Source: Octopus sinensis (Eukaryota). Taken from it: DNA of 64,000 nucleotides. The notes under the pieces were generated by a model. The model did no database searches and was not told where the DNA came from. It saw nothing but the letters and a program-made list of their open reading frames with translations. The stretch spans positions 51,584,001-51,648,000 of the forward strand of contig NC_043013.1 of the NCBI RefSeq assembly GCF_006345805.1, read 5' to 3'. A program made the translations under genes and the position numbers. How positions within the stretch are numbered: the first letter of the stretch is position 1; each line of letters opens with the position of its first letter. Shown here one piece after another: positions 19,937 through 53,711 of the stretch.

Positions 19937-20347
19937 ACGTTCTCACTTCCCGAGCGTTAGACTAATACATCTGTTTGTAGTTTACACATCCATCTTCGTC
20001 CTTTGTTTTGCTTATTTTTTGTAAATTCCAAATATATACATATATGTATATGTGTGTGTGTGTGTGTGTATTATATATATATAATATATATACATTATAT
20101 TATGCATGTATATATATATATATATATATACATTTGATATATATATGGAGTATATATATATATGCATACGTGTGTTATAAACAAACATAGTATATATATA
20201 ATATATTATATAGATATATATATATATCACAATCAAGGAACGGCCATAATAGGCCATTCACCCACTAGAAATAACAGCTAAAGCTTCCACCGCCAAAATA
20301 ACATTAATTCCGTAAACCAGGAGAAAATTAAAAAACATTACCCTGTA

Positions 20348-20450
20348 ATTTCTTATACGATGCACCGTTTCATCTACTGTTTAATGGTAAAACTACCTGA
20401 TTAAATAAATCAAGCCAATCTTCCATAGGCCCTTAGATTCGTCAGTAAAT
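20348..20450 (-). ncRNA. Type I hammerhead ribozyme copy 1 (stem I shortened by a 3-nt deletion)
   Basis: Reverse complement has intact CTGACGA, GAAA and GTA core. Confidence 0.7.
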
Positions 20451-20828
20451 AGCCAGATCGGAACAGATATTTTCACGAGGCATTTCTGTCCCTGCCTCGG
20501 CAATATCTGACCTAAAATTTTCAAATCATCGCACTCGCGCCAAATTTATCGGCAGCAAATAAATATAAGCCGCCGATTCCATTACGGAATTAACCAGAAA
20601 ATTCATAATTAATCAATATAGGGTGGCAAAAAATTTTGTAGAATTTTTTTGCCACCAGCGGCCTAGTGGGAAAAAATTAAATAGTCATAGACCATTTTTA
20701 AGTTCAACATCACAATCAAGGAACGGCCATAATAGGCCATTCACCCACTAGAAATAACAGCTAAAGCTTCAACCGCAAAATAACATTAATCCGTAAACCA
20801 GGAGAAAATTAAAAACATTTACCCTGTA

Positions 20829-20934
20829 ATTCTTATACGATGCACCGTTTCATCTACTGTTTAATGGTAAACTAACCTGATTAAATTAAATCAAGCCAAT
20901 CTTCCATAGGCCCTTAGATTCGTCAGTAAGAAAT
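20829..20934 (-). ncRNA. Type I hammerhead ribozyme copy 2
   Basis: Reverse complement TTCTTA-CTGACGA-ATCTA...TAGAT-GAAA-cggtgcatcg-TA-TAAGAA. Confidence 0.85.
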
Positions 20935-21118
20935 AGCCAGATCGGAACAGATATTTCAAATTATGAATTTTCTGGTTAATTCCGTAATGGAATCGGCGGC
21001 TTATATTTATTTGCTGCCGATAAATTTGGCGCGAGTGCGATGATTTGAAAATTTTAGGTCAGATATTGCCGAGGCAGGGACAGAAATGCCTCGTGAAAAT
21101 ATCTGTTCCGACTTGGCT

Positions 21119-21225
21119 ATTTCTTACTGACGAATCTAAGGGCCTATGGAAGATTGGCTTGATTTAATTTAATCAGGTTAGTTTACCATTAAACAGTAGA
21201 TGAAACGGTGCATCGTATAAGAAAT
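21119..21225 (+). ncRNA. Type I hammerhead ribozyme copy 3, extended stem II
   Basis: Stem I ATTTCTTA/TAAGAAAT (8 bp); CTGACGA at 21127-21133; stem II ATCTA...TAGAT (21134-21201); GAAA at 21202-21205; near-palindromic stem III ACGGTGCATCGT; GUA cleavage after 21217. Confidence 0.88.
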
Positions 21226-21442
21226 TACAGGGTAAATGTTTTTTAATTTTCTCCTGGTTTACGGAATTAATGTTATTTTGCGGTTGAAGCTTTAGCTGTT
21301 ATTTCTAGTGGGTGAATGGCCTATTATGGCCGTTCCTTGATTGTGATGTTGAACTTAAAAATGGTCTATGACTATTTAATTTTTTCCCACTAGGCCGCTG
21401 GTGGCAAAAAAATTCTACAAAATTTTTGCCACCCTATATTGA

Positions 21443-21476
<34 letters not shown>

Positions 21477-50703: not shown

Positions 50704-50804
50704 ATATACATCGGTTAGGTAGGTACTATAAATTTAGGGTGAATACTTGATAAGTGAAAGCTCCTGTATACGCCAGCTAGTAGCAGAGGTGAGAGGGTAT
50801 AAGT

Positions 50805-51355
50805 ATCAAATGAAATCAAAAACAGAACCATAAAGGATGTCGCGGTACACGTGTTTCGAGTTTTATAAAACAACTTATTCTTACATCAATGTATAATCGA
50901 CATAACAGATAGTTTAAAGCTCTCTTCAACCGCATGCAATTGCTACACCAAAGACTTGTATCACATTATAAAAAATCCGAAAGGTATATTTGTTATTACC
51001 CATAATGATAGGTATATCGAGTCTCCCTGAGAAAGTATGTTTCTAAAGTATGGACAGATTTTCGAAGTCCAATGATACCCTACACACCTATTTGGTTATG
51101 AATGTTTACAAACATACTTTTTCAGGGAGACTTGATATATTTATCATTATGGGTAACACTAATTGTACCTTTCGGATTTTTCATAATGTGATGTAAATTT
51201 TTGGTATAACAATTGCATGCGGCTGAAGAGAGCTTTAAACCATCCTTTATGTCGATTATACAATGATGTAAGAATAGGTCGTTTATAAAGCTTGAAACAC
51301 GTGTACCACGACATCCTTTGTGTTCTGTTTTTGATTTCATTTGATTTCATTTGAT
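50805..51355. mobile_element. Head-to-head inverted pair of a hammerhead-bearing ~300-bp element (family 2)
   Basis: 50805-51047 is the diverged reverse complement of ~51104-51355; HHR on minus at 50842-50933 (core TTGAAGA) and on plus at 51219-51309. Confidence 0.85.
51219..51309 (+). ncRNA. Type I hammerhead ribozyme, extended stem II (family 2)
   Basis: GCGG-CTGAAGA-GAGCTTTA...TAAAGCTT-GAAA-cacgtg-TA-CCAC; palindromic stem III ACACGTGT. Confidence 0.78.
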
Positions 51356-51405: not shown

Positions 51406-51714
51406 GCGGAGGCGCAATGGCCCAGTGGTAAGGGCAGCGGACGTGCGGTCGTACGATCGCGGTTTCGATTCCCAGACCGGGCGTTGTGTGTGTTTATTGA
51501 GCGAAAACACCTAAAAAAAGCTCCACGATGCTCCGGCAGGTGGGGTGGGGTGGCGATCCCTGATGTACTCTTTCACTACATTTTCTCCCACTCTTTCTTC
51601 TGTTGGCCTGCTCGCTTAGTCAGCGGGGTGGCGTCATTCGAAGGCTAAAACAATGGGAACGCATTGTGACCAGCGATGTGTAATAACATCTAATGGTCTG
51701 GTCGGTCACGTGAT

Positions 51715-53383: not shown

Positions 53384-53586
53384 ATATATATATATATTGA
53401 GTGAGAGAAAACGGTATGGACGGTTTTTGGAGTCCAATAATATCCTGTACACCTATTTGATTATGGAGATTTACAAACATACTTTCTCAGTGATACTCAG
53501 TGTTTACCTACCATTATAAATAATACCAAATGTTCTTTCTCAGACCTTTCATAATGTGATACAAGTCTTTGGTGTAGCAATTGCAT

Positions 53587-53679
53587 GCGGCTGAAGAGGG
53601 CTTTTTAAACTATCTGTTATATCGATTATACATTGATGTAAGAATAAGTTGTTTTATAAGCTCGAAACATGTGTACCGC
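53587..53679 (+). ncRNA. Type I hammerhead ribozyme, family 2 solo copy (element 53398-53715, in (TA)n)
   Basis: GCGG-CTGAAGA-GGGCT...AGCTC-GAAA-catgtg-TA-CCGC. Confidence 0.78.
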
Positions 53680-53711
53680 GACATCCTTTGTGTTCTGCTT
53701 TTTATTTCATT

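What the first reader, a model, noticed from the sequence alone, without database searches (positions are those of the whole stretch)
50805..51355. Second, unrelated long-stem-II hammerhead family with the same head-to-head architecture
Two diverged copies point outward from a junction at 51047/51048. Each carries a type I HHR with a 64-nt stem II, palindromic ACACGTGT stem III and a GUA site; the left copy has a C3-to-U core mutation. Visible divergence between the arms argues against a read fold-back artefact. No obvious sequence similarity to the 20226 family, yet the same design, points to a shared insertion mechanism (inferred Penelope-type).
Basis: partly seen in the sequence, partly recalled or inferred. 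Interest (0 to 1): 0.72.

Follow-up and report, generated by a model that had tools for sequence, protein, structure and literature searches.

The report
Penelope retroelement ends with long hammerheads
These are two back-to-back leftover ends of a known kind of animal jumping gene (a Hydra-type Penelope-like retroelement), each carrying a predicted self-cutting hammerhead RNA whose second arm is more than twice as long as in published Hydra elements, and the regular way such pairs end suggests that the element is likely copied from two start points in one event.

Summary
Confirmed, and explained by a known element class. The pair (about 50713-51355) is two 5'-truncated copies of the 3' terminal repeat of an autonomous Penelope-like retroelement, joined 5'-to-5'. 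Walking upstream from genomic copies reached a reverse transcriptase plus GIY-YIG ORF with Hydra-clade motifs, and a full-length copy with this hammerhead at both ends. The hammerhead is supported by covariation across sister families. All of them carry a 36-66-nt helix II, against 12-26 nt in published Hydra hammerheads; a 54-nt precedent exists in a plant element. In 29 of 30 classifiable outward pairs one arm stops at a body end and the other at a tail end about 75 nt further, which fits two primings in one insertion. The arms here differ more than usual because the left arm has a roughly 100-nt tract from another sub-lineage. Cleavage is untested, and both ribozymes here are damaged and on opposite strands. 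The scan noted long-helix-II Hydra hammerheads and two-ended arms before on other DNA. Verdict: new variant of a known kind.

The parts
50713..51047 (-). Left arm: 5'-truncated 3' terminal repeat (pseudo-LTR) of the Hydra-type element, ending beyond the tail site
   Evidence: outer end 50708-50713 by alignment to full-length copies
50713..50804 (-). Tail: 75 nt (50730-50804) past the body end plus about 17 nt more; in full-length copies this sequence runs on to the ORF start; absent from the right arm
50842..50933 (-). Left type I hammerhead: stem I 4 bp, core with C3-to-U (50929), 65-nt helix II with one proximal mismatch, palindromic stem III 50854-50847, cleavage base 50846; predicted inactive
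50858..50959 (-). Tract in the left arm that carries alleles of another sub-lineage (gene conversion or template switch, inferred)
   Evidence: differs from the right arm at 13 of 17 diagnostic sites inside and 2 of 22 upstream, Fisher p 2.9e-5
51044..51048 (.). 5'-to-5' junction; 4-nt overlap region matching the right-arm upstream sequence at 3 of 4 letters; no spacer
51048..51355 (+). Right arm: 5'-truncated terminal repeat ending at the body site (51345) plus a 10-nt duplication, followed by AT/GT microsatellite
51219..51309 (+). Right type I hammerhead: intact core, 64-nt rod-like helix II, palindromic stem III 51297-51304, cleavage after 51305, one stem I mismatch (51308)
53411..53722 (+). 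Third copy of the same repeat, another sub-lineage, intact core at 53591, 66-nt helix II; similar to the donor type of the left-arm tract

Best explanation
The pair is two 5'-truncated copies of the 3' terminal repeat of a Hydra-type Penelope-like retroelement joined 5'-to-5', likely made in one insertion in which the element's enzyme would cut both DNA strands in a TA microsatellite and prime reverse transcription twice. Shown: the repeat is continuous with an RT plus GIY-YIG ORF; copies end at two fixed sites, about 40 and about 115 nt past the hammerhead cleavage site; outward pairs have one arm of each kind; the arms of a pair usually share a sub-lineage; the copies span the cleavage site. 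Inferred: each cut strand primes at one of the two sites, both cDNAs stop early and are joined by microhomology or short filler, and the template was uncut (or re-ligated) at the hammerhead. Inferred: the hammerhead works as a dimer through its 8-nt palindrome when two repeats lie on one strand, as in full-length or tandem elements, and the long helix II is a conserved three-segment rod that the core tolerates. At this locus the two ribozymes are damaged and on opposite strands, and a read-through RNA would fold into one long hairpin, so they are predicted inert.
For: Full-length copy G000:C4 about 73973350-73982000: short inverted piece, repeat with hammerhead and tail, ORF, 2.5-kb 3' UTR, repeat with hammerhead, TA run. 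EN fragment, UTR segments and hammerhead unit lie collinear on one strand in 8 of 12 10-kb stretches examined. 3' ends of 164 pieces: 66 body, 82 tail, 16 other; 29 of 30 classifiable outward pairs are body plus tail, binomial p 6e-8. The young sister family shows inverted arms attached to ORF-bearing arms with the same two ends. Arms are at least 93.5% identical in 17 of 19 comparable pairs. TA runs flank 95 of 118 ends. Junctions of 37 pairs: 15 overlap, 2 blunt, 13 filler of 1-40 nt, 7 far apart. Covariation over 14 representatives: 96.1% of cells paired against 75.6% shuffled, 0 of 500; 9 of 13 pairs change on both sides; the stem III palindrome is kept in four different sequences. A purified Penelope-type protein cuts and extends both strands, starts at two adjacent internal sites that define the tail, is predicted dimeric and inserts uncut RNA (PMC11167929).
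Against: No cleavage or priming was tested. The hammerhead fold is 7.3 (right) and 4.9 (left) kcal/mol above the free minimum, and helix II is significantly stable in only part of the copies (z -0.1 to -5.5). Ten of the 14 rows in the covariation test were found by a pattern that demands pairing, and the rows are related. Within the family, the flank just downstream is almost as conserved as the core (94.5% against 97.7%). One pair is tail plus tail and 7 of 37 pairs could not be classified; two of the three queries contained the tail. 73 of 116 places show a single piece, though flanks were mostly 1.5 kb. The window pair is itself atypical (88.4%, 11 of 35 diagnostic sites differ). The in vitro precedent is a Poseidon element, not Hydra. 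Clade assignment rests on motifs, not a tree.
Confidence: 0.68

Rival explanations
1. Same element, but one priming only: a single cDNA is made and the second arm arises by fold-back or template switching onto a second repeat of the same (tandem or circular) RNA, with the tail made when the intermediate is resolved.
For: Arms usually share a sub-lineage. Craig et al. ascribe the one-sided tail to EN-mediated resolution of the intermediate (PMC8557442, passage). Five tandem places exist.
Against: The two arms have independent 5' truncation points and either arm can be the longer one. Two start sites and two-strand extension were measured for a related protein.
Confidence: 0.2
2. The hammerhead-like motif is a conserved protein-binding or RNA-pairing structure that no longer cleaves; the long helix II blocks or replaces catalysis.
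For: Weak folding of these copies. Copies span the cleavage site. Only 4 arms start near it (3 places) plus one sister-family copy. Published metazoan PLE hammerheads cleave poorly or need protein.
Against: The catalytic core letters are kept across sister families whose stems have changed completely, which is what selection on catalysis predicts.
Confidence: 0.2
3. Two separate insertions, or a later DNA-level inverted duplication, put the arms together.
For: The window's arms are no closer than average copies (rank 42 of 83 and 30 of 83).
Against: The excess difference is confined to one tract; outside it the arms share alleles (2 of 22 differ). The body/tail rule holds in 29 of 30 pairs. 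No remainder of an interrupted copy lies beyond the right arm.
Confidence: 0.07
4. A non-autonomous retrozyme or a DNA MITE.
For: Most copies are short and non-coding. The neighbouring 20226 family is a tandem non-coding unit.
Against: The repeat is continuous with an ORF. It has no fixed unit length, no fixed terminal inverted repeats and no recognisable target duplication; arm lengths vary from tens of bases to kilobases.
Confidence: 0.03

Closest known systems
Hydra clade of C-terminal EN+ Penelope-like elements (Craig et al. 2021, PMC8557442; e.g. Hydra-1_Obim, Hydra-1_Crog, Penelope-13_HM)
   Same: RT plus C-terminal GIY-YIG; RW and DKT motifs; CxCX5C linker; no CCHH; CxxC and CxH around E and N; type I hammerhead near the 3' end with a short self-complementary stem III; (TA)n targets; inverted 5'-truncated copy; tail at one end.
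   Different: Helix II 64-66 nt (36-60 in sister families) against 12-26 nt in the 26 Hydra rows of their File S2; unit about 5.4 kb with a 2.5-kb microsatellite-rich 3' UTR against generally under 3 kb; tail about 75 nt against 30-40 bp; visibly a different family from Hydra-1_Obim (other hammerhead and RT sequence, compared by eye).
Minimal dimeric type I hammerheads of metazoan PLEs (Cervera and De la Pena 2014, PMC4209133)
   Same: Short stem I, palindromic stem III, location in the terminal repeats; that paper already notes pairs 100-700 bp apart on opposite strands.
   Different: Their 'larger than usual' helix II is 7-8 bp; here it is a three-segment rod of about 25 bp.
PLE-X1 elements of spike mosses (Craig et al. 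2021, File S2)
   Same: PLE hammerhead with a long helix II region (54 nt in PLE-X1_sMoe), flagged there as non-canonical.
   Different: Plant, EN-minus, rDNA-targeting, unrelated clade; a single family, no covariation series.
Poseidon element PAc of Anolis (Frangieh et al. 2024, PMC11167929)
   Same: Two adjacent RT start sites defining the tail; both strands cut and extended; AT-rich targets; uncut RNA used as template.
   Different: Other clade; the start sites lie inside the ORF start; no genomic body/tail pairing rule in the parts read.
Metazoan non-LTR retrozymes (PMC7229834; bioRxiv 10.64898/2026.07.22.740005)
   Same: Type I hammerhead, link to PLE terminal repeats.
   Different: Retrozymes are tandem non-coding units; this repeat belongs to a coding element.

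Membership tests
Penelope-like element (EN+) | One ORF with RT and GIY-YIG endonuclease, flanked by pseudo-LTRs | tested here: met
   broken ORF between two hammerhead repeats in G000:C4; intact 842-aa frame in the sister family, 59-82% identical over matched segments
Penelope-like element (EN+) | 5' truncation, inverted 5'-truncated copy, optional tail at one end | tested here: met
Hydra clade | DKG changed to DKT | tested here: met
   ADKTG in L166 and L198, ADKIG in L167
Hydra clade | N-terminal RWK motif | tested here: inconclusive
   RW is present but followed by A in this family; RWR and RWK in sister families
Hydra clade | CxCX5C linker before the EN | tested here: met
   L160, L163, L198; spacing shorter in L156 and L157
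Hydra clade | CCHH absent; CxxC before E and CxH after N in the EN | tested here: met
Hydra clade | Hammerhead near the 3' end; insertion into (TA)n | tested here: met
   (95 of 118 ends)
Hydra clade | Typical size under 3 kb (descriptive in the paper, not a clade criterion) | tested here: not met
   ORF about 2.9 kb plus 3' UTR about 2.5 kb; sister family 4.7 kb
Hydra clade | Placement inside Hydra in an RT tree | not tested
   The published reference proteins were not available as stored sequences; resemblance read from the supplement
Type I hammerhead ribozyme (dimeric PLE type) | Conserved core CUGAnGA, GAA, A15.1-U16.1, H17 in type I order | tested here: met
   right copy intact, left C3-to-U; 99 of 125 copies intact
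Type I hammerhead ribozyme (dimeric PLE type) | Three helices supported by covariation | tested here: met
   across families; not recovered within the family alone
Type I hammerhead ribozyme (dimeric PLE type) | Palindromic stem III able to pair between two copies | tested here: met
   duplex -10.3 kcal/mol against -0.5 as a hairpin
Type I hammerhead ribozyme (dimeric PLE type) | Self-cleavage after H17; loop 1-loop 2 contact | not testable with these tools
   needs a bench assay
Non-LTR retrozyme | Non-coding tandem unit with a hammerhead in each repeat | tested here: not met
   continuous with an ORF; 5 of 116 places tandem only
MITE | Fixed terminal inverted repeats and target-site duplication | tested here: not met
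   arms variable and unequal, flanks are microsatellite

The most novel reading that the evidence does not exclude
A whole sub-clade of Hydra retroelements in this animal lineage uses a hammerhead with a 36-66-nt rod-like helix II that short-loop search patterns miss. Its 8-nt palindrome pairs two element RNAs, which a dimeric enzyme then primes on opposite DNA strands at two different fixed sites, so that every inverted Penelope insertion is the footprint of a two-RNA, two-primer reaction. The mosaic left arm could be a recombinant between two co-used RNAs, and one locus whose arms are joined exactly at the palindrome would be a direct trace.
Probability: 0.2. Interest if true: 0.68.

Novelty: new variant of a known kind. 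Interest (0 to 1): 0.38.

Why it matters
How Penelope-like elements make their inverted and tailed insertions, and what their hammerheads do, are stated open questions (PMC8557442, PMC11167929). The 29-of-30 body/tail rule gives a sharp prediction for an in vitro priming assay, and a sister family with intact 842-aa frames supplies the reagent. The long helix II series shows that searches with short-loop patterns undercount hammerheads in animal genomes and offers natural variants for testing what helix II may carry. The locus itself is a decayed repeat with no sign of a host function.

Tried and rejected
Rfam: no hammerhead in the window's best 150 of 611 matches or among 10 local matches. 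Single-sequence folds not better than shuffles; unconstrained consensus fold of 64 copies gave 8 pairs without covariation. PLE ORFs next to L019, L025, L028 and L124 looked like the parent but belong to other families: none of the 29 other RT loci of the L019 family carried this hammerhead, and L124 is a different element with its own repeats nested in a pair. Pfam gave no RT or GIY-YIG hit for 4 Hydra-type proteins; the 120 listed homologues are unnamed or hypothetical, the named ones from molluscs and a bryozoan. Expression: no RNA holder listed; four contig runs laid on the stretch cannot show ends or strand and no piece spans the junction. 5' ends at the cleavage site: a few cases, no clear excess, and the queries were biased. 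Target-site duplication cannot be judged in microsatellite flanks. The idea that the arms came from two wholly different templates was dropped once the tract was mapped. One search lacked the locus map and was redone. Two papers were not held (PMC5785218, PMC5850863), and the supplements of PMC4209133 and of the bioRxiv preprint were not seen; long helix II hammerheads may be described there.

Full report
Observation. The window holds an inverted pair meeting at 51047/51048. The right arm runs 51048-51345 with a 10-nt duplication to 51355, then AT/GT microsatellite. The left arm runs from 51047 to about 50713 on the minus strand. Each arm has a type I hammerhead pattern: 4-bp stem I, CTGAAGA, a 64-nt (right) or 65-nt (left) helix II, GAA, the palindrome ACACGTGT and a GUA site. 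The left core has C3-to-U; the right stem I has one mismatch. Rfam does not see the motif and the two copies fold no better than shuffles, so the case had to come from relatives.

Family. The genome (2.7 Gb) gave 1163, 1820 and 1322 first-look candidates for three queries, 40 scored each. From all fetched loci I collected 164 pieces at 116 places: 73 single, 37 with an outward-facing pair, 5 tandem only, 1 inward only. Flanks were mostly 1.5 kb, so 'single' is an upper bound. 99 of 125 pieces that span the motif keep the full core pattern. In the first 64 copies, core letters were 97.7% conserved, proximal helix II 95.7%, distal helix II 90.5%, the upstream flank 87.4% and the downstream flank 94.5%; this alone is weak evidence.

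Parent element. PLE ORFs beside four loci were other families. Two steps of walking upstream through a pyrimidine- and microsatellite-rich region reached a GIY-YIG coding end. In 8 of 12 10-kb stretches the EN fragment, UTR segments and hammerhead unit lie in order on one strand (the other four lack the hammerhead within the stretch on that strand). One copy is full length: a short inverted piece, the repeat with hammerhead and tail, an ORF broken by stops and nested insertions, a 3' UTR, the repeat again and a TA run (G000:C4); its two repeats are 98.8% identical. The protein has RW, DKT, a CxCX5C linker, no CCHH, and CxxC and CxH around the conserved E and N. These are the marks given for the Hydra clade (PMC8557442, section 11 as passages). 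No tree was built. The unit is about 5.4 kb, longer than the published Hydra elements.

Is the hammerhead real? A protein search found a young sister family with intact 842-aa frames and more distant families. A general pattern found 22 hammerheads in 13 of 15 10-kb stretches around these ORFs, against a mean of 0.15 in 20 shuffles. All have a long helix II (36-60 nt). On 14 representatives (4 of this family, 10 of sister families; near-identical rows left out), 96.1% of cells pair against 75.6% shuffled (0 of 500), 9 of 13 pairs change on both sides, and slid controls fall to 21-43%. Stem I varies as GCGG/CCGC, TCGG/CCGA, TTAG/CTAA and TTGG/CCAA. Stem III stays palindromic in four sequences. 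The ten sister rows were picked by a pattern that demands pairing, so the count leans upward. Helix II folds as an unbranched rod with internal loops in 17 of 18 motifs tried, better than 95% of shuffles in 12 of 18 (10 or fewer of 200 shuffles as stable). The palindrome pairs at -10.3 kcal/mol between two copies and barely as a hairpin, as in the dimer model for PLE hammerheads (PMC4209133, parts 1-2 of 4; PMC6765202, passages). In File S2 of PMC8557442 the 26 Hydra rows have 12-26 nt between the two core halves (my count); a spike-moss PLE-X has 54 nt, so a long helix II is not without precedent.

Architecture. Copies end at two sites, about 40 nt (body, 66 pieces) and about 115 nt (tail, 82 pieces) past the cleavage site; 16 end elsewhere or are cut. 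Of 37 outward pairs, 30 could be classified: 29 have one body and one tail end, 1 has two tails. The window pair follows the rule. Two of three queries held the tail, which fixes one arm but not its partner. The young sister family shows the same two ends with inverted arms attached to ORF-bearing arms. Junctions are overlaps (15), blunt (2), short fillers (13) or far apart (7); at one place the two arms overlap exactly in the 8-nt palindrome. TA runs flank 95 of 118 ends. The inverted copy and the one-sided tail are described for PLEs in general (PMC8557442). A purified Poseidon protein cuts and extends both strands, starts at two adjacent sites that define the tail, is predicted dimeric and does not need hammerhead cleavage (PMC11167929, parts 1-2 of 4). 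Two primings in one event is therefore my reading; a fold-back or template switch from one priming is not excluded.

Why these arms differ. In 17 of 19 comparable pairs the arms are at least 93.5% identical; the window pair is 88.4%. The excess lies in one tract: between about 50858 and 50959 the left arm differs from the right at 13 of 17 diagnostic sites and from the third copy (53411) at 2 of 17, while upstream it differs from the right at 2 of 22 and from the third copy at 15 of 22 (p 2.9e-5 and 8e-4). Each arm also has 7-9 rare changes. So the arms likely came from one insertion, and the left one took a tract from another sub-lineage, by later gene conversion or by template switching. The pair is not a fold-back artefact: the arms differ in both ends and in sub-lineage. 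A read-through RNA would form one hairpin of about -338 kcal/mol, so the ribozymes here are predicted inert.

The 20226 family. No similarity was found (best E 0.75). It has a 67-68-nt helix II, a 12-nt near-palindromic stem III, a tandem unit of about 484 nt and two outward arms ending about 103 nt apart. I did not look for its parent.

Novelty. The element class, the hammerhead, the inverted copy and the tail are known. Five literature searches showed no report of long helix II hammerheads in animal Hydra elements or of the body/tail pairing rule; most hits were seen as listings only, two key papers were not held, and PMC7229834 (passages) and the retrozyme preprint (part 1 of 5) were read in part. 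Earlier notes of this scan report both features on other DNA. Score 0.38: an ordinary decayed repeat at this locus, with a real structural variant and a testable mechanistic footprint in the family.

Noticed in passing
window 53411-53722: Third copy of the same repeat with an intact core, 98% identical to a young sub-lineage; its hammerhead fold is within 0.7 kcal/mol of the free minimum.
   Followed up: yes
window 20226-21447: The 20226 family also has two outward arms ending at two sites about 103 nt apart; copies of it sit beside PLE copies at L105, L113 and L170.
   Followed up: partly
L274 (G000:C10:45181579-45181758): Two arms overlap exactly in the 8-nt stem III palindrome, as if two cDNA ends annealed there.
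   Followed up: partly
L185:794: A sister-family copy with a long ORF begins within 2 nt of the hammerhead cleavage site; a single case.
   Followed up: partly
L198, L199, L200: Young Hydra-type family with intact 842-aa frames, a 51-nt helix II and near-identical terminal repeats: a candidate active element.
   Followed up: partly
L083, L094, L101-L111: Abundant young PLE family (784-aa frames, Zn-finger linker and CCHH, Neptune-like by motif); my hammerhead pattern found no motif of its own in 30 RT loci, whose flanks may be too short.
   Followed up: no
L124:1273-6572: Another PLE with its own inverted repeats, nested between the two arms of a pair of this family; a decayed short hammerhead-like motif is visible in its repeat.
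   Followed up: partly
window 50730-50770 (-) and L198:1488-1520: A small hairpin just before the tail end is similar in this family and the sister family; a possible start signal, also suggested by note e1-9560118.
   Followed up: partly
L191:3074-3185: Outward pair of yet another long-helix-II hammerhead (49 nt) beside a sister-family copy; parent not traced.
   Followed up: no
window 51408-51700: Repeat with a tRNA-like head right of the pair (SINE-like by eye, also after the copy at L016); not tested.
   Followed up: no
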